64,000 bases of DNA from an uncultured Candidatus Saccharibacteria bacterium (lineage in GTDB: Bacteria > Patescibacteriota > Minisyncoccia > JAHISW01 > Tagabacteraceae). This document shows positions 8,585-63,891 of the stretch, one piece after another. The position numbers and the translations under genes were made by a program. The stretch lies in the NCBI GenBank assembly GCA_964601305.1, contig CAZRMW010000003.1, forward strand, positions 3,116 through 67,115, written 5' to 3'. The notes under the pieces were generated by a model that did not search any database, was not told the DNA's origin, and was given only the letters and a program-made list of their open reading frames with translations. How positions within the stretch are numbered: position 1 is the stretch's first letter; the number at the start of each line of letters is the position of its first letter.

Positions 8585-9136
8585 ATGTTGATATATATTG
8601 CTCTTATTATTGTGGTTGCTGGTTTTTCTTTGATGTTTCTGTTGTTTGTTTTGGAGCTTGGCAAAAGATTGAGAAAGTTGGAAAAAGAGCAAGAAGAAAA
8701 TATTTTAGAACTTTGTATAGCGCCGGTAAATAAAAAAGTTGAAGAAATAAAATTTTTAAGAAGGATGACCTCCGGAGCCGTTGGCTACGATATAATAGCA
8801 AACGAAAGAGTGATTGTCCCTGTGGGGCAGTCAAAAACCATAAAAACAGGTTTTGCTACTGCTTTTACTGAAGGCTTTGAAGCAGCTATCAGAGGAAGAA
8901 GTGGGCTCGAAGCAAGATTTCACATGCTTAAACTTGGAGGAACAATAGACCCAGACTATAGGGGCGAATGGATAATTACACTTCTTAATTTGGGTTTAAA
9001 GCTTTATGAAATAAAAAAAGGAGACAGGGTTGCGCAAGTTGTTTTTCGCAAAGTTTATTTTCCAAAAATGAAAATAGTGAATAAATTACCAGACACAAAA
9101 AGAGCAGGAGGCGGATTTGGAAGCACAGGGAAATAA
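8585..9136 (+). CDS. dut: dUTP diphosphatase (dUTPase); the true start may be the internal ATG at 8765, preceded by an AAGGA SD
   Basis: dUTPase motifs are present: AVGYDI, GTIDPDYRGE and RAGGGFGSTGK. The first 60 aa of the long ORF are hydrophobic and coiled-coil and may be an extension or an artefact. Confidence 0.8.
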   Translation: MLIYIALIIVVAGFSLMFLLFVLELGKRLRKLEKEQEENILELCIAPVNKKVEEIKFLRRMTSGAVGYDIIANERVIVPVGQSKTIKTGFATAFTEGFEAAIRGRSGLEARFHMLKLGGTIDPDYRGEWIITLLNLGLKLYEIKKGDRVAQVVFRKVYFPKMKIVNKLPDTKRAGGGFGSTGK

Positions 9137-9332
9137 AACAAGAGAAAAATTAGACGCCATAAAAGGGATTGAGATCAGGTGTTTTAAATGCAACAAAATT
9201 ATCGGGAAAATTCAAAACGGGAGCTTAATTTCAAAGGGCGTTTCTTATATCTGTTATTTGTGTAGATCTAAACTAGAAAAAACTCAAAGAGAAGATTCTT
9301 TTGGATTTTTTGGTATGAAAAATCCTTTTTGA
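9117..9332 (+). CDS. small zinc-ribbon protein (CxxC...CxxC)
   Basis: The sequence CFKCNK ... CYLC is present, and the ORF overlaps the dut stop by 20 nt. Confidence 0.35.
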   Translation: MEAQGNKTREKLDAIKGIEIRCFKCNKIIGKIQNGSLISKGVSYICYLCRSKLEKTQREDSFGFFGMKNPF

Positions 9333-9424
9333 CAATAAATACTCAGAAAGGTTTAAAAGCCTGCGGCTTTGTGTCGCGGTTTTTTTGTTTTATTAACAAG
9401 AAATGCTAAAATAAATTTATTTGC

Positions 9425-9453
9425 TATTGACAGATAGATAGTGGTATGTTAGT
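9425..9453 (+). promoter_or_regulatory. sigma70-like promoter (TTGACA-N17-TAGTAT)
   Basis: It lies upstream of the 9515 small ORF. Confidence 0.4.
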
Positions 9454-9514
9454 ATTTAGGAAGACTTGAATCATTAAAAGCCCTAAACCTTTCGGGTCGG
9501 GCAAGGAGGAAAAA

Positions 9515-9670
9515 ATGGCTTTAAAGTGTCAGGATTGCAGAGGGGAATTGGATCTAGGGAAAGAAACTCAGGTAAAAAAAATTGAAGGAAGTTTTACTAA
9601 ATCAGTTGTTCCATGCAGAAAGTGTGGGAAATGGTATACCTTGCAAGGAGAGCTAGTGGAAGTGAAGTAA
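9515..9670 (+). CDS. small zinc-ribbon protein (51 aa; CQDC...CRKC)
   Basis: The protein is MALKCQDCRGELDLGKETQVKKIEGSFTKSVVPCRKCGKWYTLQGELVEVK. A strong SD (AAGGAGG) sits 6 nt upstream. It is absent from the ORF track because it is shorter than 60 aa. Confidence 0.45.
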   Translation: MALKCQDCRGELDLGKETQVKKIEGSFTKSVVPCRKCGKWYTLQGELVEVK

Positions 9671-9678
9671 TTTCTCTT

Positions 9679-10764
9679 TTATTTTTTCCCTATTTTCAAG
9701 CTTTTATAACTCGTTTTTTTGACGAATTGAGGTTCGTCCCAGAGCCCTGCGTCTTGCAGGGCTTTTTTCATTTTTGCATTATCAAAACTAGTTCTTTCTT
9801 GCAAAACTCGTGTTAAATAGCCGTTTTCTCCAAAAACACGCTCTATATGCTCCTGGTCCATAAAGGCGTTTATAGAGCCCTGGAGAGCCTTTATTTGCTT
9901 ATTATTTTGGCTATTTTGCTCTTTTAGCGATAAATACTGGTTTATAAGGTTTTCCACCTCTTTTTCGTCTATTTTTTCCTTGTCTTTGGCATATAAATGC
10001 ATAAACATCGGGCATTTTTTTTGGTATCCACACCAGTCGCAAAGAGCCGATGGGGTAGGGATGAATTCCTCTTCTTTTCCTATTATGTTTTCAATTTCAT
10101 TTATAATTTCTAAAATTTCTTTTTTTGTGTTTTCTAAATCTTCGGGGTTTCTTTGTGTTTGGATTTTTTCATTATGTTTCAAAAAGTAGAGAGACAATTT
10201 TATGTTTTCGGGTTTTATATGTGGCCATTTTTTTAGTAGTCCAAGATTATAAATAGAAAGCTGAAGATCTTTATCTAATATATCTTGAGAGGGGATTCTT
10301 TTAGCAGTTTTATAATCTATGATTTCGTAAGTATCGTTTTTAGGGTCTTTGTCTATTCGGTCTATGATACCCGAAAGTATGTGCTCCTCTCCATTTTTTT
10401 CGTCTTTAATTGGTACTCCGAAGAAAGACTCAAGCTCTAGGGGATTGAAGTTCCAGGGGAGATTTTTTTTGTAAAAATTTTTTATTATAGTTACACCTTC
10501 TTTGAAGTGCGCATCTGTGTGTTCGGGTGGCAGGTTTTCTATTTCTTTTACCGACTTATACCAAACGTCGGAAAATATATTTATTAATTCATCGATGGTG
10601 GGGTAGAGGGGAGTGCGCTCAAATATACGTTTTAATATAGAGTGCACTATCGTACCAAAAACAGCCTCGACAGACTTCGGGGTTTTTATCTTGTCTAGCG
10701 TTTGGTATTTAAATTTTAGTGGACAAGTTTTATATGTATTTAGCGCTGAATAAGAAACTCTCAT
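9679..10764 (-). CDS. PD-(D/E)xK nuclease superfamily protein (Cas4/RecB-like exonuclease with Fe-S cluster cysteines)
   Basis: The N-terminus carries YKTCPLKFKY, the core IIDYKT motif is present, and the C-terminus carries CDWCGYQKKCP (3 Cys), giving the Cas4/AddB-type 4-Cys arrangement. Confidence 0.7.
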   Translation of the reverse strand: MRVSYSALNTYKTCPLKFKYQTLDKIKTPKSVEAVFGTIVHSILKRIFERTPLYPTIDELINIFSDVWYKSVKEIENLPPEHTDAHFKEGVTIIKNFYKKNLPWNFNPLELESFFGVPIKDEKNGEEHILSGIIDRIDKDPKNDTYEIIDYKTAKRIPSQDILDKDLQLSIYNLGLLKKWPHIKPENIKLSLYFLKHNEKIQTQRNPEDLENTKKEILEIINEIENIIGKEEEFIPTPSALCDWCGYQKKCPMFMHLYAKDKEKIDEKEVENLINQYLSLKEQNSQNNKQIKALQGSINAFMDQEHIERVFGENGYLTRVLQERTSFDNAKMKKALQDAGLWDEPQFVKKTSYKSLKIGKK

Positions 10765-34333: not shown

Positions 34334-34804
34334 CTAGCGCTTGCTCCATTGTGCAGCTTTTCTTGCTTTCTTTAGTCCAAACTTTCTTCTTTCTTTCGCT
34401 CTAGGGTCTCTTGTTAGGAAACCTTCCGGTTTTAATATTAGCCTAAATTCTGGATTGAATTTAAGGAGTGCCCTGCTTATCCCCAATCTTATTGCTCCAG
34501 CTTGCGAACTAATTCCGCCTCCCTTTACTTTTACGCTTATAAAAAAGTTTTTTAAAACTTCAACTTTTTTAAGAGGGGCTTTTACTGTATCTCGAAGCTC
34601 TTTAATTGGTAGATAAGTTAACATTGCTTTGTCGTTTATTAAAACATCTCCTTTTTTGCCTTCAGTGGGTTTCTCAAAAAGCCTCACTCTTGCAACAGAG
34701 CTTTTTCTCCTTCCCACAGCTTCAAAGTACTTTCCGCCAGCTGGCGAATTTTTCTTCTTTCTTGCCCCGCTCGGCGGGGTTGTTTTTTCTTTTTTTTCTG
34801 GCAT
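34334..34804 (-). CDS. rpsI: 30S ribosomal protein S9 with a ~25-aa N-terminal extension containing an in-frame GC-rich palindromic element
   Basis: GRRKSSVARV ... the C-terminal AAQWSKR is the S9 signature. The extension [18 protein letters not shown] is encoded by the GC-rich hairpin GCCCCGCTCGGCGGGGT at 34763-34779. Confidence 0.85.
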   Translation of the reverse strand: MPEKKEKTTPPSGARKKKNSPAGGKYFEAVGRRKSSVARVRLFEKPTEGKKGDVLINDKAMLTYLPIKELRDTVKAPLKKVEVLKNFFISVKVKGGGISSQAGAIRLGISRALLKFNPEFRLILKPEGFLTRDPRAKERRKFGLKKARKAAQWSKR

Positions 34805-37728: not shown

Positions 37729-38112
37729 TTATTTTTTATCAGCCTTTCTTCTTCCGCTAGTCATCGTCCTACGACCCTTGTAAGATCTATTTGTTCTAGA
37801 ATTTGTCTTTGTTCTTTGACCTCGTACTGGTAGCTGTCTAGAATGCCTACCTCCTCTGTAGGTTTTTATATCTTTTAATCTCTTTATATTACCCAAAACA
37901 TCTCTTCTTAAATCTGCCTCTATTCTTTCTTTTTCTACCAAAAGTCTGATTTTGTTTTCTTCTTCTGAAGTAAGATCTTTTACTTTTTTGTCAAAAGGAA
38001 CTTTTACTTCTGTAAGAATTTTTTGCGCGCTAACTTTGCCTATTCCATAAAAATAAGTAAGAGCAATCTCTAATCTTTTGTTTTCTGGTATGTTTACTCC
38101 TGATATTCGCAT
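37729..38112 (-). CDS. rpsM: 30S ribosomal protein S13
   Basis: The N-terminus [25 protein letters not shown] and a basic C-terminus are present. Confidence 0.9.
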
Positions 38113-38299
38113 GTGTTTAAAATTAACGAGCGAAGCGAGTATAATTTTTTACACCCCGCCCTTTTATATCTTTTCTTGGTTTTTAATTATTACTATTTTT
38201 AATACTCATATTCTTTATTTGCAATACCTCGCTTCTGTGTATAAGGGCGGGGTAAAGGTTTGCCTACGAAATTTTTTACAAAATTTCGGGCAATTCGCT
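38113..38299 (+). repeat. ~187-bp repeat element copy 1 filling the rpmJ-rpsM intergenic gap (internal long-range inverted repeat CACCCCGCCC...GGGCGGGGT; promoter-like TTTAAA-N18-TATAAT; 3-prime hairpin GCCTACGAAATTTT..AAAATTTCGGGC)
   Basis: It aligns end-to-end at about 75-80% identity with 41668-41858. It begins at the nucleotide after the rpsM start codon. Confidence 0.6.
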
Positions 38300-38416
38300 T
38301 TACTTCTGTCTTTGTTTGTGTTTAGGATTTTTTCGGCAAATAACCACAACTCGACCCCTGCGTCGCGTCATTTTGCAATCCTTACAAATTTTTTTAACTG
38401 ATACTCTAACTTTCAT
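38300..38416 (-). CDS. rpmJ: 50S ribosomal protein L36
   Basis: The reverse-complement ORF encodes [38 protein letters not shown], which is 38 aa. It is not in the ORF track because it is shorter than 60 aa. Confidence 0.85.
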
Positions 38417-41667: not shown

Positions 41668-41858
41668 GCTTGAAAATTAATGAACGAAGTGAATATAATT
41701 TTTTGCACCCCGCCCTCTTAATATTTTTTCTTAATTGTTAATCTTTATTATTTTTATACCTATTTTTTAATTACAAATCCCTGCTCTTGTGTGTGAGGGC
41801 GGGGTAAAGGTTTGCCTACGAAATTTTAAATAAAATTTCGGGCAATTCTTCTTTATTT
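41668..41858 (+). repeat. ~190-bp repeat element copy 2 (TTGAAA-N18-TATAAT promoter-like box, CACCCCGCCC...GGGCGGGGT inverted repeat, 3-prime hairpin plus U-rich tail), beginning right after the start codon of the 40414-41667 gene
   Basis: It is a paralogue of 38113-38299 with the same orientation, antisense to the flanking minus-strand genes. Confidence 0.6.
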
Positions 41859-41860
41859 TA

Positions 41861-44839: not shown

Positions 44840-44995
44840 TGCTTAAAATAATATTACAGAACGCTATTTTTTTCAATTCTTTTTTCTGTTTGTTTCCCAA
44901 ATACACATTTGTTCGCGATCGCGGAAAAAATGGTATTTGATAAAATTCACAAAATAAAAAAGCCACCCATGAAGGCAGCTTTTTTTTATTTTTCA

Positions 44996-47777: not shown

Positions 47778-47805
47778 GCAAATACTCGCGATCGCGAGTA
47801 TTTGC
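47778..47805. terminator. bidirectional terminator palindrome GCAAATACTCGCGATCGCGAGTATTTGC followed by a T-run (contains GCGATCGC)
   Basis: It lies directly after the mnmA stop. Confidence 0.5.
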
Positions 47806-49303: not shown

Positions 49304-49356
49304 AATGATTGTTTTATTCTGAAAACCCCCACAAATTTTTTGTGGGGGTTTCTTTT

Positions 49357-50562
49357 TTATCTATTTTTCCTTACTTGTTTTATTGCAAATCTATGCGCTT
49401 CAGCATCTACTTTTAAAAACAAATCTTTTTGTGCAGAAAACATTTCTCGTACAGATTTTTTAAGTTTGGCGCTAAAAATTATATTATAATCTTTAGCCGA
49501 AGATTGTGAGTGCTTCCCTGCTTTAGAAATACCAACTACTGGTATTTCTAGATTAACATTTTTTAAAATTTTTAAAAAAGTATTTACTTGTTGCCTTCCC
49601 CCATCTACCACAATTATGTCTGGGTATTGCCATTCTTTGTGTTTTAGTCTTCTTTCTAAAACTTCTCTAAGTGCCCCTGTGTCGTCTCCCACTCCAGCAC
49701 TTTTTATTTTAAAAAGTCTATAATCTTTTTTACTAGCTTTTCTGTTTATAAAAACTGCCATCGATCCATAAACATCTCCCTTCCCAAATTGAGAAATATC
49801 ATAGCCTTCTATTCGCATAGTACATATTTTATGCGATCGCATTATTTGTGTACTATGTGGTATTAAAACGATGTCGTCTAAAAACTTCCTGTTAGTTTTT
49901 GGGTTTTTGCTCTTTAAAAATCTTATAAGCCCACGGATTATTTTTTTATATTCTTTAGAGTTTATTTCCCTTGTACACACTCCAGCACATAATCCAATCT
50001 GATTGTGGAAGCAGGGCTTACCCCCCTCGGCGGGGCTTGCCAGAGGCACGCATGTACTGTACGGATAAATTCTCCTTGCTACACTCAAAATATTTTTTAA
50101 TTCTCTTACGCTCTGAAATGGCCCCACTAAATTTTTTGGCTTCCCCGCCGAGCGGGGTAAACCATATTTTTTTAAGTCTCTTTCGCGAACTACCACGGGC
50201 TTGGGGAAATCTTTATTCATATTAAAAAACAAATAGACAAAACTTTTGTGGTCTTTGTCTTTTATATTGTATTTTGGCCAATACTTTTTAATTAAATTAT
50301 TCTCAAGCACCGCCGACTCCAGCAAATTGTTGGTCTCTACAAAAGAAACTTTCTCTACCTCCCCCACAAACTGTTCCACCGGCCTTCTGTTGGAGGTCCG
50401 ACTTCCAACAGATAGAAAGTAGGAGGAGATGCGGGTTTTTAGGTTGGCTGCGCGGCCGACATATATTACCTTTTTCTTTTTATTTAAAAACAAATAAACC
50501 CCTGTCTTTTTTGGCAGTTTTTTCAAAAAATCCTTATTTTTATTGACTTTTATTGACTTCAT
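49357..50562 (-). CDS. uvrC: excinuclease ABC subunit C, short form (GIY-YIG domain plus RNase-H-like endonuclease domain; no (HhH)2)
   Basis: The N-terminal GIY-YIG is GVYLFLNKKKKVIYVGRAANLKTRISSYF. The C-terminal DAEAHRFAI is present. The protein is 401 aa. It contains two CCCCGCYSGGCGGGG hairpin elements. Confidence 0.75.
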   Translation of the reverse strand: MKSIKVNKNKDFLKKLPKKTGVYLFLNKKKKVIYVGRAANLKTRISSYFLSVGSRTSNRRPVEQFVGEVEKVSFVETNNLLESAVLENNLIKKYWPKYNIKDKDHKSFVYLFFNMNKDFPKPVVVRERDLKKYGLPRSAGKPKNLVGPFQSVRELKNILSVARRIYPYSTCVPLASPAEGGKPCFHNQIGLCAGVCTREINSKEYKKIIRGLIRFLKSKNPKTNRKFLDDIVLIPHSTQIMRSHKICTMRIEGYDISQFGKGDVYGSMAVFINRKASKKDYRLFKIKSAGVGDDTGALREVLERRLKHKEWQYPDIIVVDGGRQQVNTFLKILKNVNLEIPVVGISKAGKHSQSSAKDYNIIFSAKLKKSVREMFSAQKDLFLKVDAEAHRFAIKQVRKNR

Positions 50563-50615: not shown

Positions 50616-50686
50616 AGATATCCTTCTTCTGGGGTTGAAGGGTTCATGGTTAAGGGGGGCAACCGTTTGCCCCCCTTTTTTTTATT
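50616..50686 (+). ncRNA. candidate ~70-nt small RNA (promoter to GGGGGGCAACCGTTTGCCCCCC plus U9 terminator)
   Basis: A consensus-like promoter and a strong intrinsic terminator are present. An internal hairpin CCUUC...GAAGG is present. There is no ORF. Confidence 0.3.
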
Positions 50687-53195
50687 TCAGATACCCTTTT
50701 AAATATTCCCCTGTGTGGGAATTTTTATTTTGGGCAACTTCTTCTGGTGTACCTTTTGCCACAAGTTTACCACCTTTATCTCCCCCATCTGGCCCCAAGT
50801 CTATTATATAATCCGCTACTTTTACAATGTGCATGTTGTGCTCAATTACTACTACCGTGTTTCCTTTTTCTACTATTTTTTGTAACACATCTAAAAGCAT
50901 TTTTATATCGTCGTAGTGCAAGCCAGTAGACGGCTCGTCCAGCAGATAAACAGCATTTCTTACAAATGGCTTGCTAAGCTCTTTGGCAAGTTTTATTCTC
51001 TGTGCCTCTCCACCACTAAGCGTAGTTGCTGGTTGGCCAAGCTTTATGTATCCAAGCCCTACATCTTTTAGCACTTTCAGCTTGTCTGAAATGGTATAAA
51101 TATCTTTAAAAAATTCATATGCTTCTTCCACTGTCATTTTTAAAACATCTGAAATATTTTTGTCTCTGTGTTTTACTTCTAAAGTTTCTCTATTAAATCT
51201 TTTTCCTTGACACACATCGCACCCCACAGACACCGCCGGCAAAAAATGCATCTCTACCAAATTAAATCCCACACCATCGCATGCTTCGCATCTTCCGCCT
51301 GGTTTGTTGAATGAAAATCTCCCTGCTCTGTACCCTCTTTCACGTGCGTCTTCAAGCTCCGCGAAAAACTCACGAATAGGTGTCCAAATACCTGTATAAG
51401 TAGCCGGGTTGGAGCGTGGACTTCTACCAATTGGTGATTGGTTTATTTCTATAACTCTACTTAAATATTCTAATCCCAAAATTTTTCCTACATTTTTAAA
51501 GCCAACATCCCTTCTTTTATAGTTTACATTCGCTAAATTTTTATGAAGTACCTCATAAAGCAAGCTACTCTTGCCACTCCCAGACACACCCGTAAGACAC
51601 ACCAATTTTTTTAGTGGTATATCTATATTTACATTTTTTAAATTATTTACTTTAGCGCCAATTATTTGCACTTTTTCGTGTATCTTTTTACGCCTTTCTG
51701 GAAGATCTATTTTTTGCTTGCCTACCAAATAATCTATGGTTGAAGATTTTTTATTTTTTAAGGCTTTACTAATCTCCTCGTTTACTACCACCTCGCCCCC
51801 ATGCCTTCCAGGGCCAGGGCCAAGATCTACCAAATGGTCGGACTCCATAATAGTTCTCTCGTCGTGCTCTACCACTATTACAGTGTTTCCAGCTTTTTTT
51901 AATTCTTTAAGAGTTTTTATTAGTCTTTTGTTGTCGCGCTCGTGTAAGCCTATTGTTGGCTCATCTAAAACATAGAGCGTTCCTGCGAGCTTGGAGCCGA
52001 TTTGGGACGCGAGGCGTATTCTTTGCGCTTCGCCACCGCTAAGCGTAGATGCTTTTCTGTCGAGTGTCATATACTCTAGGCCTACTTCTAAAAGAAACCC
52101 TAACCGAGAAATAATTTCTCTGAGAGGTTCTTTGGCAACGCTATTTTCTTTTTTATTTAGCTTGCTTTCTAAATTTATAAAAAATTCATAAGCCTCTGTG
52201 ATATTTTTAGAAATTATATCGTGAATATTTTTGTTAGAGATTTTTACAGAAAGCGCTTCTTCTTTTAGCCTTTTACCTTTACATGCTGGACACTTTTCTT
52301 TTGTAAAAAAATCTTGCATACCTAAACCCGAACATGCCTCGCACGCTCCATGTGGACTATTGAAAGAAAATAGCCGTGGCTCAATTTCTGGAAAAGCAAA
52401 TTCGTCTTTAGGGCAATTCCATTTTGAAGAATATAATTTTTCTTCGCTTAAAAATTTTGCTACCACTAATCCCTTGCTATAATTGAGTGCGTCTTCTACT
52501 GCTTCCGTAAGCCTAGAAATATCTTTAGGTTGGACTTTATCTATTAAAATTTCTATGTCGTGCTTTTTGTTTTTGGTTAGATTTATCTGATCGTGAAGAG
52601 AATGCTTTTTGCCATCTACCCTTGCTTCTTCATACCCTTTGTCTAAAAAATCATAAAGAAGCTGATAATACTCCCCTTTTCTACCTCTAACTACTGGAGA
52701 AAATATCGACACAAAACCTGCTTTCTCTTTGTTGGCTCGTTTTATTATAGAGTCTACAATTTCTTGCGCGCTCATTTTTTTTATTTTGCCTCCACATTTT
52801 GGACAATAAACAACCCCGATTCTTGCATAAAGCACACGCAAATAATCATAAATTTCTGTAAGAGTAGCCACTATAGAACGCGGGTTTCTTCCATGCGCTT
52901 TTTGATTTATAGCAATTGCTGGAGAAAGGCCTTCAATGTCGTCTACATCTGGCCTATCGGATTGACCCAAAAACTGTCTTGCGTATGGCGACAAAGATTC
53001 TATATATCTTCTTTGTCCTTCCACAAAAATAGTATCGAAAGCAAGAGAGGACTTTCCGCTTCCAGACACACCAGTAAATACTATCAGCTTATCTTTTGGA
53101 ATCTCTAAGCTGATGTCTTTCAAATTGTGCACTCTAGCACCTTTTATTTTTATTTTTCTTGCCCCGCTCGGCGGGGTTTTATTTTCCTTTTTCAT
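50682..53195 (-). CDS. uvrA: excinuclease ABC subunit A
   Basis: Two ABC ATPase modules ([17 protein letters not shown]) and Cys4 zinc fingers are present. The N-terminus [14 protein letters not shown] is encoded by the same GC-rich 24-mer as in rpsI. Confidence 0.9.
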
Positions 53196-55041
53196 TCTTT
53201 TTGTCTATATTCAAAAATCTTTCTATTTTCTTTTTTATGGTCTGTGGCTTTATGCCATGTTTTTTGTTGTATTCTAGCTGAATTTTTCTCCTTCTTTCAG
53301 TTTCCTCCACTGCCCTCTTTACCGATTTTGTCTTTTCGTCTGCATAAAGAATTACTCTTCCTGCACTGTTTCTAGCAGCACGACCTATTGTTTGAATAAG
53401 CGAAGTTTCGTTTCTTAAAAACCCTTCTCTATCTGCATCTAAAATTGCTACTAAAGATACTTCTGGTAAATCTAACCCTTCTCTAAGCAAGTTTACTCCC
53501 ACAAGCACATCAAACTTTCCTTCTCTAAAATTCGTAAGCGTATCGGCTCGCTCCAAAGTTTTTATATCGCTATGTATATATCTACACCTTATTTTCTTTC
53601 TCTTTAAAAAATCTGTAAGCTCTTCTGAGCTTCTTTTGGTAAGAGTTATCGCAAGCACTCTTTCATTTTTGGAAACGGTTTTCTCAATTTCTTCAAGCAA
53701 ATCATCAATCTGCGTTTTTTGCTTTTTGTTGGAAGCTAAGCTTCCAACAGATACAATTGGGGCGACTGGACGGATGAAAATTTTGGGATCCACTAGTCCT
53801 GTAGGGCGTATTACCTGCTCTACCACACCTTCTGAATTTTCTTTCTCAAAATCTGCTGGAGTAGCTGAAGTAAAAATAGTTTGGCCAATCCTCTGCTCGA
53901 ACTCTTTAAAATTGAGCGGCCTATTGTCTATTGCACTTGGGAGCCTCCATCCGTGCTCTACTAAAATATTTTTTCTGCTTTTGTCCCCAGCAAACATACC
54001 TCCAATTTGTGGTACAGCTAAATGAGATTCATCTATAATTGTTAAAAATTCATCTGGCAATCCAAAATATGAAAGAAGTGTTTCTGGAGGATCACCAGCA
54101 AATTTGCCAGTTAAGTGCCTAGAATAATTTTCTATGCCATGGCAATAGCCAACTCTGCCTATCATTTCTAAGTCATATTTTGTTCTTTTTTCAAGACGCT
54201 CTTCTTCAAGAAGTAATCCATTTTTTCTAAAATGTTTTAATCTTTCTTTTAGTTCATTTTTGATATCTTTAATTGCCCTTTTCCTTTCTGGTGCAGACAT
54301 TATAAAATGCTTTGGAGGAAAAATCACAACATCTTTTATGCCCTCTAACTTATGCTTTGTAAGTGGGTCGAATTTAATAATATTTTTAATTTTTTGATTT
54401 TCTAAAATTATTTTATAAGCAATATCTTCAGAAGCTGGCATAAATTCTATTTTATCGCCTCTCACCCTAAAATGCCCCCTCTTGAGGGAGATTGGGTTTC
54501 GCTCAAAATGTATTTTTATAAATTGCTTTATTAAGTCTTTGCGAGTAATCATTTTGCCTACTTCAAGCACTAAGCTAGATTTTAAATATCTTTCAGGAAC
54601 TCCAAGATTGTAAATACACGATACGGACGCTACGACTATTACATCTTTTCGGGTAAGGAGAGCAGAAGTAGCTTCGTGACGAAGTTTTTCTATTTCATCG
54701 TTTATCATTGCCTCTTTTTGTATATATGTATCAGTAATTGGAAGATATGCTTCTGGTTGATAATAATCGTAATAAGAGACAAAGTAGCAAACTTTGTTTT
54801 CTGGAAAAAAATTTTTGTACTCGCTATAAAGCTGTGCTGCCAAAGTTTTATTTGGTGCTATCACTAGTGTTGGTTTGCCAGTTTTTTCTATAATATTTGC
54901 TGTCGAAAAAGTTTTTCCGCTTCCTGTTACACCCAAAAGAGTCTGGTATCTTTTACCAGATTTTAGTCCTTTTGTAAGCTGATCAACCGCTTCTGATTGA
55001 TCTCCTGCTAATTTGAAACTTGAATGTAGTTTAAATTTCAT
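53179..55041 (-). CDS. uvrB: excinuclease ABC subunit B (start placed at [19 protein letters not shown]; the upstream in-frame ORF extension to 55218 is rejected)
   Basis: The helicase motif GVTGSGKTF, a beta-hairpin and a C-terminal UvrB/C domain are present. The N-terminus aligns with canonical UvrB starting at the internal Met. The extension reads through a GC-rich intergenic palindrome. Confidence 0.9.
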
Positions 55042-55065
55042 AATTTTTGATTTTAGTTTGCCTGC

Positions 55066-55093
55066 CCGCCTCAATGCGAAGCTTTGGGCGGGA
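55066..55093. repeat. GC-rich palindrome CCCGCCTCAATGCGAAGCTTTGGGCGGG in the uvrB 5-prime UTR
   Basis: It shares TGCCCGCCTC with the in-frame palindrome in xth (63722-63762). Confidence 0.45.
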
Positions 55094-55222
55094 ACATACA
55101 AAACTGACCCCGTTTGTTTATACTGGGGGTATATAAAAAATTTAGTTGTACAACCATATTGCCACGCACCAAACAAAAAAGCAACCCTCGGGGAGTTGCC
55201 TTTATTAACTTTTAGCACTTTT

Positions 55223-58216: not shown

Positions 58217-59419
58217 TTGAACCTTGAAGCATCACTAAGCAGAACAAAAAGGAGGTCTGACTTGGAAATTTTAAAACCAAAAGAATATTTTTTGCTGTTT
58301 ATTGTTTTTTTTGCTGGAGTAATATCTATTGCTACAAGCAACAATCCTCTTGTATATGCCCAACTAATGATTTTGGCTTTTTGTCAAAATATTGCTTTTT
58401 CTTTGGTTAGTAGATCAAGAAACAGGGACAATAACAACTATCATTTAATCGCTGCTGTTGGAAGTAATGGTATCTGGTTTCTTACAATGTCTTATATGAT
58501 TAGCCAAGGTATGCCTATTTCTATGCTTGTTCCTTTTTTGTCTGGAACAACATTAGGAAGTCTTTATGGCGCACACATTTCAAAAAAAATAGAGTTTTGG
58601 ATAGGACTAACAGCAGATGCAACAAAAAATACTGCTCAAATATCTGAGTCTTCCTTCTTTAAAAAATATATATTGTTTTTATGTTTGGGAGCAATTGCTA
58701 TTTCTTATTTAGGCTTTTCTGAAAACACACAAAGTCTAGCTTGGCTTATGCTTCTCTCTTGTGTACAAAGTATCGGTTTTGGTCTGTCTAGTAGAGCTGG
58801 AAATAGAGGAAGCCAAAACTATTTTATTTTTACAAAAATATTTAGCATAACTTTTTGGTTTTTGACTTTTGGTTATCTTGTTACCAGAAATATGCCTCTT
58901 TCTCTATTTGTTCCCTACACCGTTGCAACTGTATTTGGAAGTATTACTGGAGCACAAGTTTCCATGAAAATTGAAAGATTTTTCGGCTTCAAGCCAGATG
59001 AACATGTTTCTATTGGAAGTGTTGAAAATATAGAATCTCTATTTAAAGAATGGTGGCTTTTTACAACGATAATCTTTGCTGGTTTTTGTTATATCATCTT
59101 CGCGCCTTCTTCGATAAAATTAGCTACGATGTTTTTTGGAACACTAATTTTTGCAACAGAATCCATGTCTTTTGCAATTGCAAGCAGAGCTGGAAACAGA
59201 GATAGTCTTTTTTATCACTTGTGTACAAGGCTCGTAAAAGGAACTGTTTGGTTTTTTACGATTGAATATACTGTTATTCATAATATGTCTATTGATATTT
59301 TGGTTCCTGTTGGACTAGGAATGGTTTTAGGAAGTGTGCTTGGACAAAAGATTGGTATGAAAATCGAAGAAAAAATTGGTGCTGTGATGGACATACCCAT
59401 GAAGCCCAAAAGAGTTTAA
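58217..59419 (+). CDS. integral membrane protein built from three tandem ~110-aa 4-TM repeats
   Basis: Three internal repeats share SRSRNRDNNNY / SRAGNRGSQNY / SRAGNRDSLFY, each followed by TM helices and a ...GAxxSxKIE motif. Confidence 0.55.
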   Translation: MNLEASLSRTKRRSDLEILKPKEYFLLFIVFFAGVISIATSNNPLVYAQLMILAFCQNIAFSLVSRSRNRDNNNYHLIAAVGSNGIWFLTMSYMISQGMPISMLVPFLSGTTLGSLYGAHISKKIEFWIGLTADATKNTAQISESSFFKKYILFLCLGAIAISYLGFSENTQSLAWLMLLSCVQSIGFGLSSRAGNRGSQNYFIFTKIFSITFWFLTFGYLVTRNMPLSLFVPYTVATVFGSITGAQVSMKIERFFGFKPDEHVSIGSVENIESLFKEWWLFTTIIFAGFCYIIFAPSSIKLATMFFGTLIFATESMSFAIASRAGNRDSLFYHLCTRLVKGTVWFFTIEYTVIHNMSIDILVPVGLGMVLGSVLGQKIGMKIEEKIGAVMDIPMKPKRV

Positions 59420-63048: not shown

Positions 63049-63891
63049 TTATTTTAAAGTCAATTCTATCGGACAATGGTCTGAACCCATAATGTCTGAT
63101 AAAATTTCCGTAGATTTTACGTTTTTTACAAATTCTTTGGATACGAAAAAATAATCAATCCTCCACCCTACATTTCTGTCTCTTGCTCTGCTTTTCATAT
63201 CCCAATATGTGTAAGCCTCTTTTTTGTCTGGATAAAAGTGGCGGAAAATATCTACATAACCTTTTTTAATAACTTGAGTTATCCACAGGCGCTCTATCGG
63301 TAAAAATCCAGTATGTTTTTCGTTTGCTTTTGGTCTAGCCAAATCTATTTCTTCGTGCGCCGTATTTACATCTCCACAAAAAATTATGCCTGCCCCGCCC
63401 GGCGGGGGTTTTTTTCTAAGTTTTTCGACATATTTTAAAAACGCATCATAAAAATCCATTTTATATTTAAGTCTTTCTGGTCCCATCCCCCCGTTTGGAA
63501 AATAAACATTTAGTAATACAAAATCTTTAAAATACAAAACAAGTATTCTTCCTTCTTTATCGAACTTTTCTATACCTATGCCGTACTCTACTTTTTTTGG
63601 CTGCTCTTTTGTGTAAACAGCTACACCACTATAACCTTTTTTAACTTCTGAAGATGAAAAATACGCATGGTACTTATCCACAACCCTAATTTCTTCTGAA
63701 AGTTGCGTCTCATTTGCTTTTGCCCGCCTCGACTCGCTGTCGTTTGTCGACGCGAGGCGGGTTTCTTGAAGGCACAAAATATCTGGATTTTGTTTTTTTA
63801 TAAATGGTAAAAGCAACTCTTTTTTGTGAAGAGCTCTTATGCCATTTATATTCCAAGAAATTATTTTCATAAATATTATAAACAAAATCAA
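63049..63891 (-). CDS. xth: exodeoxyribonuclease III (AP endonuclease); probable start at MKIISWNINGIRA
   Basis: WNINGIRA ... LCLQET ... CGDVNTAHEEIDLARPKANEKHTGF ... GSDHCPIEL are ExoIII motifs. Two GC-rich palindromic elements lie in frame (PPPGGAG, RLASTNDSESRRAKA). Confidence 0.8.
   Translation of the reverse strand: MILFIIFMKIISWNINGIRALHKKELLLPFIKKQNPDILCLQETRLASTNDSESRRAKANETQLSEEIRVVDKYHAYFSSSEVKKGYSGVAVYTKEQPKKVEYGIGIEKFDKEGRILVLYFKDFVLLNVYFPNGGMGPERLKYKMDFYDAFLKYVEKLRKKPPPGGAGIIFCGDVNTAHEEIDLARPKANEKHTGFLPIERLWITQVIKKGYVDIFRHFYPDKKEAYTYWDMKSRARDRNVGWRIDYFFVSKEFVKNVKSTEILSDIMGSDHCPIELTLK

What the first reader, a model, noticed from the sequence alone, without database searches (positions are those of the whole stretch)
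50029..50157. Two further copies of the CCCCGC-YSGG-CGGGG hairpin inside uvrC
ACCCCCCTCGGCGGGGCT lies at about 50029-50043 and CCCCGCCGAGCGGGG at about 50143-50157. Both are in frame, coding PAEGG and PRSAGKP. The uvrC gene also holds a GCGATCGC site at 49831-49842. Multiple insertions in one DNA-repair gene suggest the element tolerates or targets coding sequence.
Basis: seen in the sequence. Interest (0 to 1): 0.6.

Follow-up and report, generated by a model that had tools for sequence, protein, structure and literature searches.

The report
Tiny palindromic insertions inside uvrC
Two copies of a 15-base G+C-rich hairpin sequence that is scattered through this tiny-genome (Patescibacteria) bacterium have been inserted in frame into loops of the DNA-repair gene uvrC, a miniature version of the repeated "REP-like" palindromes already known to sit inside repair genes in other bacteria.

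Summary
CCCCCCTCGGCGGGG lies at 50021-50035, about 8 nt left of the stated position, and carries one stem mismatch. CCCCGCCGAGCGGGG lies at 50143-50157. Both sit inside a short uvrC (49357..50562, minus strand), coding SPAEGG and PRSAG.

The window holds five copies of CCCCGC-NNN-GCGGGG against 0 expected. All five are in ORFs: S9, UvrA, UvrC twice, and exonuclease III.

Codon alignment with the closest orthologues shows each uvrC copy is exactly five extra codons. None of 119 other UvrC homologues has them. Both fall in low-confidence loops of an AlphaFold model.

The same palindrome occurs at other loci in related and distant Patescibacteria. One side always carries a YTTR tetranucleotide, mostly TTTA or CTTG. 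The 15-mer has no stop codon in any of the six frames.

Best reading: a minimal, tagged, REP-like palindromic element, probably mobile as single-stranded DNA, that survives in permissive protein loops. No mobilising enzyme was found.

It fails the defining tests for canonical REP (GTAG/CGTC tag, RAYT), RPE and Ssn/NTS motifs. It does repeat the published pattern of intragenic REPs in uvrABC genes. I rate it a new variant of a known kind, of moderate interest.

The parts
50143..50157 (.). Perfect copy of the 15-nt palindrome (CCCCGC-CGA-GCGGGG on the + strand). On the coding (minus) strand it reads CCC CGC TCG GCG GGG = PRSAG, UvrC codons 136-140.
   Evidence: It is five extra codons relative to L001. 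RNA hairpin -18.6 kcal/mol with flanks, z = -3.8. The AlphaFold block for residues 131-140 has mean pLDDT 57 and is coil.
50158..50161 (+). TAAA next to the 50143 copy. This is the TTTA tag when the element is read with a TCG loop on the minus strand.
50021..50035 (.). Degenerate copy (CCCCCC-TCG-GCGGGG, one stem mismatch). On the coding strand it reads (AG)C CCC GCC GAG GGG GG(T) = SPAEGG, UvrC codons 176-181, between the first two conserved cysteines (C171, C184).
   Evidence: It is exactly five extra codons relative to L001 and L003, whose empty sites read AG^TAAACCA and GG^TAAACCA. pLDDT is below 50 for residues 176-183.
50017..50020 (+). CTTA tag 5' of the 50021 copy (TAAG on the coding strand, from the conserved Gly-Lys codons).
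49357..50562 (-). Host gene: short uvrC (401 aa) with GIY-YIG, UvrC_M and RNase-H-like endonuclease domains and no C-terminal HhH region.
53162..53176 (.). Perfect copy with a CTTG tag on the + strand. It lies 2 nt after the uvrB stop codon and inside the UvrA N-terminal tail ([21 protein letters not shown]).
   Evidence: The L001 empty site reads AAC^CAAAAAATT.
34765..34779 (.). Perfect copy with a CTTG tag, in the Lys-rich N-terminal tail of ribosomal protein S9 (TPPSG). That tail is 18 aa longer than in L003.
63393..63407 (.). Perfect copy with a CCG loop and a CCTG tag, inside the exonuclease III (xth) gene, coding PPPGG.
   Evidence: There is a 4-residue gap at this point against Mth212 (PDB 3g91).
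49831..49842 (.). ATGCGATCGCAT, an unrelated 12-nt palindrome containing GCGATCGC, in the variable linker of uvrC. It is not shown to be an insertion.

Best explanation
The two sequences are separate copies of a short repeated palindrome with a 6-bp G+C stem and a 3-nt loop (CCCCGC-YCG-GCGGGG). Each was added to the uvrC reading frame as a net 15-nt (5-codon) insertion.

The palindrome belongs to a family dispersed at low density in this genome and in other Patescibacteria. One side is always flanked by a YTTR tetranucleotide, mostly TTTA or CTTG.

I think it most likely works as a minimal REP-like, non-autonomous mobile element. The hairpin would form in single-stranded DNA. A trans-acting single-strand-specific nuclease or transposase (HUH/Y1-type or small GIY-YIG-type) would recognise it together with the adjoining tetranucleotide. 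It would then be copied next to the same tetranucleotide elsewhere.

The 15-mer is five codons long and has no stop codon in any of the six frames. Copies that land in surface loops or terminal tails are therefore simply translated and persist, while copies elsewhere are lost. In UvrC the two surviving copies sit in a linker after the GIY-YIG domain and in the variable loop between the first two conserved cysteines.

Shown: repetition, precise in-frame insertion, the flanking tag, dispersal at non-homologous sites in related genomes, and loop location. Inferred: mobility through single-stranded DNA, the enzyme, and the absence of a host function.
For: **Repetition**
- Five copies against 0 expected in the window.
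- They are 5 of the 9 G+C-rich 15-mers in the window.

**Insertion**
- Both uvrC copies are exactly +5 codons relative to L001 and L003.
- They are absent from 119 of the 120 best homologues.
- The UvrA, S9 and Xth copies are also extra residues.

**DNA-level rather than peptide-level identity**
- The same 15-mer is read in three frames and two orientations, giving PRSAG, PAEGG and PPSG.

**Dispersal**
- The closest related genome (GCA_964590835.1) has the palindrome at other sites: the uvrB tail, fpg, U32, htpX, trpS and a tRNA spacer.
- About 20 Patescibacteria loci appeared in a truncated genome scan and about 27 low-G+C loci in a metagenome scan.

**Tag**
- All 8 copies in the window and in Patescibacteria genomes that were not selected by flank have YYTR on the same side relative to the asymmetric loop. 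That pattern has a frequency of 0.047 per site, so P is about 2e-11. Three other unselected hits (L062, L130, L154) lack it; two of them do not match the core and one is from a non-Patescibacteria genome.
- 118 hits in G+C-rich viral contigs show no such flank.
- At two sites the tetranucleotide already exists in the orthologous empty site.

**Tolerance**
- Both uvrC inserts lie in low-pLDDT coil.
- 30 of 101 UvrC homologues have an expanded Cys-Cys loop. At least four of these hold a different palindrome, CCTGCCTGCCGGCAGGCAGG.

**Precedent**
- Tagged REPs and RPEs occur in frame within genes, notably uvrA, uvrB and other excision-repair genes (PMC3733652; PMC10969869).
- RAYT genes with their own flanking hairpins exist in Patescibacteria (L005, L110).
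Against: - No candidate mobilising enzyme lies in the 64-kb window. There is no Y1 transposase and no small GIY-YIG gene.
- The Patescibacteria RAYTs I found are flanked by unrelated hairpins.
- I saw no presence/absence polymorphism: four other assemblies of the same population are identical at the hairpins.
- The insert size is inconsistent. In two pseudo-tRNA fragments the tetranucleotide appears to come with the hairpin (19 nt net). In uvrC and uvrA it pre-exists and the net gain is 15 nt.
- In pheS the hairpin and its flanks are far better conserved than the rest of the gene. There is 1 third-position difference in 10 codons, against 53% elsewhere, between orthologues that are 70% identical (P about 0.007). 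This suggests constraint or homogenisation rather than neutral junk.
- Copy density is low for a REP family, about 1 per 13 kb.
Confidence: 0.55

Rival explanations
1. The hairpins are functional recognition sites for a site-specific single-stranded-DNA nuclease of the Ssn type, a small single-domain GIY-YIG protein. That enzyme would cut incoming or exposed ssDNA next to the hairpin, and so modulate recombination or natural transformation around the tagged genes. This is how NTS/dRS3 hairpins work with SsnA in Neisseria.
For: - The architecture is the same: a G+C-rich hairpin with an orientation-defining flank (PMC11893778).
- In three different species an intergenic copy lies 25-110 nt upstream of a small GIY-YIG gene. 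These are L017, L105 and the L118 group. L144 has one within 0.5 kb.
- The pheS copy is conserved at nucleotide level.
- Two of four small GIY-YIG genes examined lie next to a type IV pilus ATPase gene.
- Four of the five window copies are in repair genes.
Against: - The published SRM search motif has no match in the window or in the hairpin-bearing loci tested.
- The reverse test failed: none of four further Patescibacteria small GIY-YIG loci has the hairpin within 5 kb.
- Those GIY-YIG genes look like mobile cassettes with their own terminal inverted repeats.
- There is no such gene in the window.
- I could not test whether these proteins belong to the Ssn clade (cd10448); NCBIfam gives no assignment.
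Confidence: 0.15
2. The hairpins act at RNA level. They would be terminators of antisense transcripts, or stabilisers or pause sites in the mRNA, and would be kept by selection for that role.
For: - On the + (antisense) strand, 3 of the 5 window copies are followed by a T-run. The terminator scan picks up two of them (53162 and 63393).
- The hairpins are stable, -11 to -18.6 kcal/mol.
- The pheS copy is conserved at nucleotide level.
Against: - The two uvrC copies have no T-run on either strand.
- By my count from the listed flanks, only about a quarter of the copies in other loci have T-rich tails.
- The T-runs are the complement of Lys-rich (AAA) tails, which is where insertions are tolerated anyway.
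- The true terminators of this operon are different, longer hairpins (50652-50677, 49323-49351).
- Orientation relative to the gene is mixed, roughly 9 sense to 15 antisense.
Confidence: 0.1
3. The motif is a DNA uptake or self-recognition sequence for natural transformation. It would accumulate by biased uptake plus recombination, with the known bias of such sequences toward genome-maintenance genes.
For: - Four of the five window copies, plus the L001 copy and the fpg copy in L039, are in repair genes.
- Uptake sequences are known to be biased toward genome-maintenance genes and to sit in less constrained parts of proteins (titles and abstracts of PMC2817400 and PMC2346458).
Against: - Density is about 1 per 13 kb, against roughly 1 per kb for DUS/USS (the latter figure is from memory).
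- The copies arise as clean insertions, not by point substitution.
- The same motif is shared by distant Patescibacteria lineages and occurs in a Bacteroidota repeat, so it is a poor self-marker.
- Outside the window the repair-gene bias is weak.
Confidence: 0.05
4. This is not an element at all. Either Pro/Gly/Arg/Ala codons formed palindromes by chance or convergence, or the sequences are assembly artefacts.
For: Pro, Gly and Ala codons are G+C-rich, and loops are often rich in Pro and Gly.
Against: - 0.00 copies are expected by shuffling.
- An identical 15-mer is read in different frames.
- The length difference from orthologues is exact.
- The flank is constant.
- The sequence is identical in four independent assemblies.
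Confidence: 0.02

Closest known systems
Tagged repetitive extragenic palindromes (GTAG- and CGTC-tagged REPs), including their intragenic copies (Di Nocera et al. 2013, PMC3733652)
   Same: - A short G+C-rich stem-loop with an unpaired tetranucleotide at one end.
- Dispersed copies, some as inverted pairs.
- Some copies lie inside ORFs, in frame, in linkers or at termini.
- That paper reports intragenic REPs repeatedly in uvrA, uvrB, other excision-repair genes, recBCD and polA, sometimes twice in one gene.
   Different: - The tag is YTTR (TTTA/CTTG), not GTAG or CGTC.
- The unit is 15 nt, or 19 with the tag, just below the 20-40 bp given for REPs.
- All five window copies are intragenic.
- Copy density is low.
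- No RAYT was found.
- The host phylum is Patescibacteria, which that survey did not cover.
Rickettsia palindromic elements (RPEs)
   Same: Palindromic repeats inserted in frame into many unrelated, apparently functional genes of a reduced, A+T-rich genome. They add a peptide segment (PMC10969869).
   Different: RPEs are about 100-150 bp and encode a conserved peptide of tens of residues. Here the insert is 15 nt, and the peptide differs with frame and orientation.
Ssn nucleases and their NTS/dRS3/SRM hairpin repeats (Chenal et al. 2025, PMC11893778)
   Same: - The hairpin core is closely alike (TTCCCGC-loop-GCGGGAA against CCCCGC-loop-GCGGGG), with flanks that define orientation.
- Some copies lie just upstream of small single-domain GIY-YIG genes.
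   Different: - There is no match to the published SRM motif.
- The 5' flank is TTTA/CTTG rather than CGTCA.
- The association with GIY-YIG genes did not hold in four further loci.
- Intragenic copies are not described for NTS in the text I read.
G+C clusters of yeast mitochondrial genomes (from memory; the review PMC8811140 was listed but not read)
   Same: Short G+C-rich palindromes that spread in a very A+T-rich genome and are occasionally found inside protein-coding genes.
   Different: They occur in an organelle, are longer (about 30-50 nt), and are mostly intergenic. I did not compare the sequences.
Type I-E CRISPR repeat (E. coli GTTCCCCGCGCCAGCGGGGATAAACC; from memory)
   Same: The stem is the same (CCCCGC/GCGGGG), followed by (A)TAAAC. 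The 50143 copy reads CTTCCCCGCCGAGCGGGGTAAACC.
   Different: These are single copies inside genes. There is no array, no spacers and no cas genes in the window, and the loop is 3 nt rather than 4. I treat the resemblance as coincidental.

Membership tests
REP (tagged repetitive extragenic palindromes, RAYT-associated) | Short G+C-rich palindrome able to form a stem-loop, repeated at many unrelated loci | tested here: met
   There are 5 copies against 0 expected. The hairpins fold at -11 to -18.6 kcal/mol. The genome of L001 holds at least 6 copies.
REP (tagged repetitive extragenic palindromes, RAYT-associated) | Unpaired tetranucleotide at one end fitting GTAG or CGTC | tested here: not met
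   A constant tetranucleotide is present, but it is YTTR (TTTA, CTTG, CTTA, CCTG).
REP (tagged repetitive extragenic palindromes, RAYT-associated) | Predominantly extragenic, downstream of genes; 20-40 bp | tested here: not met
   All 5 window copies are inside ORFs. The unit is 15 nt, or 19 nt with the tag.
REP (tagged repetitive extragenic palindromes, RAYT-associated) | A RAYT (Y1/HUH transposase) gene in the genome, flanked by the same palindromes | tested here: inconclusive
   There is no Y1_Tnp in the 64-kb window (tblastn), and the rest of the genome was not available. The RAYT-like genes in L005 and L110 are flanked by different hairpins.
Rickettsia palindromic elements | About 100-150 bp palindromic unit encoding a conserved peptide | tested here: not met
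   The unit is 15 nt, and three different pentapeptides result depending on frame.
Rickettsia palindromic elements | In-frame insertion into otherwise intact genes | tested here: met
Ssn/SRM system | Repeat matches the SRM motif HGTCWYN(0-2)YYVSBRHN(0-5)WNVSBRGN(0-2)RNCYNB | tested here: not met
   The regex matches the Neisseria NTS but has 0 matches in the window and in 9 hairpin-bearing loci.
Ssn/SRM system | Small single-domain GIY-YIG (cd10448) gene flanked by the repeats | tested here: inconclusive
   Three species have a copy 25-110 nt upstream of such a gene. None of 4 further GIY-YIG loci has one, and there is none in the window. I could not test cd10448 membership.
Ssn/SRM system | Sequence-specific cleavage of ssDNA next to the hairpin | not testable with these tools
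   This needs purified protein and oligonucleotides.
DNA uptake sequences (DUS/USS) | Hundreds to thousands of copies, about one per kb | tested here: not met
   There are 5 copies in 64 kb.
DNA uptake sequences (DUS/USS) | Bias toward genome-maintenance genes | tested here: inconclusive
   Four of 5 window copies are in repair genes (post hoc P about 5e-4). Elsewhere only 2-3 of about 22 host genes are.
Intrinsic terminator | Hairpin followed by a U-tract on the transcribed strand at a gene end | tested here: not met
   The uvrC copies lie mid-gene with no T-run on either strand. The real terminator-like hairpins of the operon are at 50652-50677 and 49323-49351.
CRISPR repeat | Array of regularly spaced direct repeats with unique spacers | tested here: not met
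   The five copies are 122 nt to 15 kb apart, in mixed orientation, inside conserved genes.
HIP1 (cyanobacterial GCGATCGC) | Hyper-abundance of GCGATCGC, about one per kb | tested here: not met
   There are 3 copies in 64 kb. That is an excess over the 0.08 expected but far below HIP1 density, and one copy is the centre of a terminator stem.

The most novel reading that the evidence does not exclude
This would be a third class of tagged palindromic repeat, YTTR-tagged, 15+4 nt, and the smallest described. It would have colonised protein-coding genes across the Patescibacteria. It would not be junk: it would be maintained at nucleotide level as a single-stranded-DNA signal, for example for a site-specific ssDNA nuclease, that governs recombination or transformation of the excision-repair genes in which it is concentrated.
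Probability: 0.15. Interest if true: 0.7.

Novelty: new variant of a known kind. Interest (0 to 1): 0.5.

Why it matters
- **Size limit.** If this is a mobile element, it pushes down the lower size limit for a dispersed bacterial repeat that still shows site preference. The unit is a 15-nt hairpin plus a 4-nt tag.
- **Protein evolution in CPR bacteria.** It shows that part of the loop-length variation in Patescibacteria proteins is written by palindromic DNA rather than by selection on the protein. UvrC, UvrA, UvrB, Xth, PheS and S9 are examples.
- **The link to repair genes.** It independently repeats, in a very distant phylum, the unexplained published observation that intragenic REPs favour uvrABC and other repair genes. 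That makes the question easier to study by comparative analysis.
- **Practical consequence.** These inserts can mislead alignment, start-codon calling and domain-boundary calling in genomes assembled from metagenomes.

Tried and rejected
- **RAYT link.** tblastn with the L005 Y1 transposase found nothing in the window. The RAYT-like genes in L005 and L110 carry unrelated flanking hairpins.
- **Ssn/SRM link.**
  - The published motif gives 0 matches.
  - Four further small GIY-YIG loci lack the hairpin.
  - NCBIfam gives no family assignment for these proteins.
- **Population polymorphism.** Four other assemblies of the same population are 99.9-100% identical and keep both hairpins. The only indel is an unrelated 15-nt one at about 59318-59333.
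- **Structured RNA.** Rfam finds only tRNAs in the window and in four hairpin loci.
- **Variant with a 4-nt loop.** None found.
- **Viral contigs.** 118 of 120 hits are in G+C-rich contigs with no constant flank. This served only as a control.
- **Neighbouring genes.** All-against-all clustering of ORFs near the hairpins found no recurrent neighbour except the small GIY-YIG genes.
- **Literature.** Searches for palindromic insertions in the Candidate Phyla Radiation or Patescibacteria returned nothing relevant.
- **Own genome.** I could not obtain genome-wide copy number or orientation statistics.
Full report
**1. What is there**

The window is A+T-rich, about 34% G+C. The region around 50 kb carries uvrB (53179..55218), uvrA (50682..53195) and a short uvrC (49357..50562), all on the minus strand. 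The best homologues are annotated as Patescibacteria, Parcubacteria or Paceibacteria proteins.

The two reported sequences are present. CCCCGCCGAGCGGGG is at 50143-50157, exactly as stated. CCCCCCTCGGCGGGG is at 50021-50035, about 8 nt left of the stated position, with one stem mismatch. On the coding strand they read PRSAG (codons 136-140) and SPAEGG (codons 176-181).

The pattern CCCCGC-NNN-GCGGGG with at most one mismatch occurs five times in the window, against 0.00 in 100 dinucleotide shuffles. These five make up more than half of the nine G+C-rich 15-mers in the window, where 1.2 are expected. The other three copies lie in:
- the N-terminal tail of ribosomal protein S9 (34765);
- the N-terminal tail of UvrA, 2 nt after the uvrB stop codon (53162);
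- an exonuclease III gene (63393).

Four independent assemblies from other samples carry identical copies, which rules out an assembly artefact.

**2. They are insertions**

I aligned the window's uvrC codon by codon with its closest orthologues, L001 (68% identical protein) and L003 (60%). Each hairpin corresponds to exactly five extra codons.

In a 39-sequence alignment most orthologues lack both segments. Among the 120 best UvrC homologues only the window's protein has a pentapeptide that this 15-mer can encode.

The other copies behave the same way.
- UvrA minus PPSGA has the same N-tail length as L001, within one residue.
- S9 has an 18-residue longer N-tail than L003. It contains TPPSG and also SPAGG, which comes from a second, unrelated palindrome, CGCCAGCTGGCG.
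- The Xth copy coincides with a 4-residue gap against Mth212, PDB 3g91.

The same 15-mer is read in three frames and both orientations, giving PRSAG, PAEGG and PPSG. What is conserved is therefore the DNA, not a peptide.

**3. Why the gene survives**

The 15-mer is five codons long and contains no stop codon in any of the six frames; this can be read directly from the sequence.

An AlphaFold2 model of the UvrC has mean pLDDT 82. Both inserts fall in coil with low confidence: residues 176-183 are below 50, and the block 131-140 averages 57.

The second site lies between the first two of four invariant cysteines, C171 and C184. From memory, these cysteines bind an iron-sulphur cluster in UvrC. 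This loop is a general soft spot. Of 101 homologues, 71 have 5-6 residues there and 30 have 9-27.

In four orthologues for which I fetched DNA, the expansion is a different G+C-rich palindrome. It is perfect in L008 (CCTGCCTGCCGGCAGGCAGG) and decayed in L005, L006 and L007. L008 also has a 15-nt palindrome, CCCGCC-AGA-GGCGGG followed by CAAG, in another uvrC loop. Palindrome-derived loop expansions are thus common in Patescibacteria UvrC.

**4. The family elsewhere**

L001 is from GCA_964590835.1. It has the palindrome in the C-terminal tail of UvrB, at a position not homologous to the window's uvrB/uvrA copy.

I scanned species-representative genomes for the tagged motif. Several more of those loci came from the L001 genome: fpg, a U32 peptidase, the end of htpX, trpS and a tRNA spacer. 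A metagenome scan added about 27 low-G+C loci.

Host genes outside the window are mostly translation genes, as expected for these genomes. They include pheS, trpS, metS, L5, L25, miaB-like twice, trmD and ksgA, plus fpg, tatD and others.

One insertion, in pheS, is shared by orthologues that are only 70% identical. Their third-codon-position identity is 47% overall. Yet the ten codons spanning the hairpin and its flanks differ at one third position plus one loop base (P about 0.007). That points to constraint, homogenisation or repeated insertion at the same site.

**5. The flank**

The 3-nt loop is asymmetric (YCG against CGR), so each copy has an orientation. Read with the YCG loop, every copy that was not selected by its flank has YYTR immediately 5'. 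These are the five in the window, L001, L059:2581 and L105:1683. The flanks are CTTG, CTTG, CTTA, TTTA, CCTG, TTTA, TTTA and TTTA.

That pattern covers 4.7% of positions in the window, so eight of eight has P about 2e-11. The pattern was chosen after seeing the data, but the margin is large. Three further unselected hits lack the tag, but they are not clean members of the Patescibacteria family. L062 is from a gammaproteobacterial MAG and has a different loop (TAA), and L130 and L154 each have a mismatch in a stem arm.

Hits to the bare 15-mer in G+C-rich viral contigs show no such flank.

Whether the tetranucleotide is target or cargo is unresolved.
- At the second uvrC site the empty sites of L001 and L003 already read ^TAAACCA, from conserved Gly-Lys codons. 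At the uvrA site L001 reads ^CAAA. The net gain at both is 15 nt.
- In degenerate tRNA 5' halves in L017 and L118 the tetranucleotide is extra relative to the intact tRNA, so the net gain is 19 nt.

Selection for frame would retain only net-15 events inside genes. That could reconcile the two observations, but it is inference.

**6. Mechanism**

The anatomy is that of a tagged REP: a short G+C-rich hairpin, a fixed tetranucleotide on one side, dispersed copies and occasional inverted pairs. Inverted pairs occur in L025 pheS and in the L118 intergenic region. The two uvrC copies are also inverted, with their tags facing outward.

REPs of the GTAG class are thought to be moved as single-stranded hairpins by RAYT transposases. 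The CGTC/NTS class is bound and cut as ssDNA by small GIY-YIG Ssn nucleases (PMC3733652, PMC11893778). My best explanation is therefore a minimal REP-like element handled in trans by an enzyme of one of these kinds.

I could not find that enzyme.
- The window has no Y1 transposase and no small GIY-YIG gene.
- Patescibacteria RAYT-like genes have their own, different flanking hairpins.
- Three species have a copy 25-110 nt upstream of a small GIY-YIG gene.
- Four further loci with such genes have none.
- The published Ssn-related motif does not match.

**7. Rival functions**

*Antisense termination.* This fits three window copies that are followed by T-runs on the + strand, but not the uvrC copies and not most copies elsewhere.

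*DNA-uptake signal.* This fits the bias to repair genes but not the density, the insertion mode or the cross-lineage sharing.

The bias itself is striking in the window. Four of five copies fall in uvrA, uvrC (twice) and xth, which together cover 10% of the sequence. The P value is about 5e-4, but the category was chosen post hoc (gene content). The nearest relative adds uvrB and fpg. In the wider sample the bias is weak, at 2-3 of about 22 host genes.

It matches a published and unexplained pattern. Di Nocera et al. found intragenic REPs repeatedly in uvrA, uvrB, other excision-repair genes, recBCD and polA. Sometimes there were two in one gene, and sometimes these were the only tagged genes in a genome.

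**8. Classification and verdict**

The element fails the defining tests for several families.
- Canonical REP: wrong tag, intragenic, no RAYT shown.
- RPE: too small.
- SRM: no motif match.
- DUS: density too low.
- Terminator and CRISPR repeat: wrong context and no array.

In anatomy and behaviour it most resembles an intragenic tagged REP. I rate it a new variant of a known kind.

Targeting of coding sequence as such is not shown.

Interest is moderate. The phenomenon has precedents. What is new is the very small size of the unit, the new tag, the spread through Patescibacteria and the repeated association with excision-repair genes.

Noticed in passing
window 44915-44922, 47788-47795 (within 47778-47805), 49833-49840: GCGATCGC occurs 3 times against 0.08 expected. 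The copy at 47788 is the centre of a 28-nt perfect palindrome, GCAAATACTCGCGATCGCGAGTATTTGC, directly after the mnmA stop codon; it looks like a bidirectional terminator. The copy at 49833 is ATGCGATCGCAT, in the variable linker of uvrC.
   Followed up: partly
window 63723-63761 (xth ORF 63049..63891, minus strand): There is a second, different palindromic insert in the exonuclease III gene. It is a 39-nt inverted repeat, CCCGCCTCG...CGAGGCGGG, which coincides with a 13-residue gap against Mth212 (PDB 3g91).
   Followed up: partly
window 34735-34746: The 12-nt palindrome CGCCAGCTGGCG, coding SPAGG, lies in the same S9 N-terminal tail as the 34765 hairpin. The tail is 18 residues longer than in the L003 orthologue.
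   Followed up: partly
L008:10130-10144 and L008:10494-10513; L005, L006 and L007 at the equivalent uvrC loop: Other Patescibacteria uvrC genes carry other palindromes in the same soft loops: CCTGCCTGCCGGCAGGCAGG (LPAGRPA) and CCCGCCAGAGGCGGG followed by CAAG (PARGGQA). Thirty of 101 UvrC homologues have an expanded Cys-Cys loop.
   Followed up: partly
L017:3520-3580 and 730-790; L118:6880-6945: Degenerate duplicated 5' halves of tRNA genes (Phe, Leu, Lys) lie upstream of small GIY-YIG genes that are followed by the intact tRNA. Their D-loops contain the CCCCGC hairpin or the CCTGCC palindrome as extra sequence.
   Followed up: partly
L105:3950-4250, L284:5001-5320, L288:5001-5320, L289:4990-5300: Small GIY-YIG genes (about 85-100 aa) in Patescibacteria are bracketed by inverted repeats, ATGCCCAGTAA...TTACTGGGTATG. 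The final ATG is the start codon of the next gene, so these look like cassettes inserted at start codons. Two of four lie directly upstream of a PilB/T2SSE pilus ATPase gene.
   Followed up: no
L005:4040-4800; L110:7180-7880: RAYT-like Y1 transposase genes in Patescibacteria are flanked by their own hairpins: AGAACGAC-TTGCGAT-GTCGTTCT on both sides in L005, and a CAGAGGGT...ACCCTCTG doublet in L110.
   Followed up: partly
L010:2350-2400 and L079:6550-6600 (Bacteroidota MAG): The same 19-mer, TTTACCCCGCTCGGCGGGG, forms the core of a longer repeated palindrome (CCTTCATGGT...ACCATGAAGG) in a G+C-rich Bacteroidota genome.
   Followed up: no
window about 9136-9679: Gene orientation converges here (+ strand genes up to 9136, minus strand genes from 9679) and the GC skew changes sign. 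This fits a replication terminus.
   Followed up: no
window about 59318-59333 (ORF 58217..59419, + strand): A 15-nt in-frame indel (TTCCTAAAACCATTC present in the window, absent in L280) is the only length difference over 21 kb between two assemblies of the same population. It is not a palindrome.
   Followed up: partly
window 38109-38302 and about 41670-41860: A stretch of about 195 nt is repeated at 82% identity between two intergenic regions. It showed up as a secondary BLAST hit.
   Followed up: no
window 50652-50677 and 49323-49351: Long G/C-tract hairpins flanked by A- and T-runs (AAGGGGGGCAA...TTGCCCCCCTT and AAACCCCCACAAA...TTTGTGGGGGTTT) lie between uvrA and uvrC and after uvrC. Three independent assemblies (L281-L283) begin about 110-115 nt beyond the first hairpin, inside the 3' end of uvrA.
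   Followed up: no
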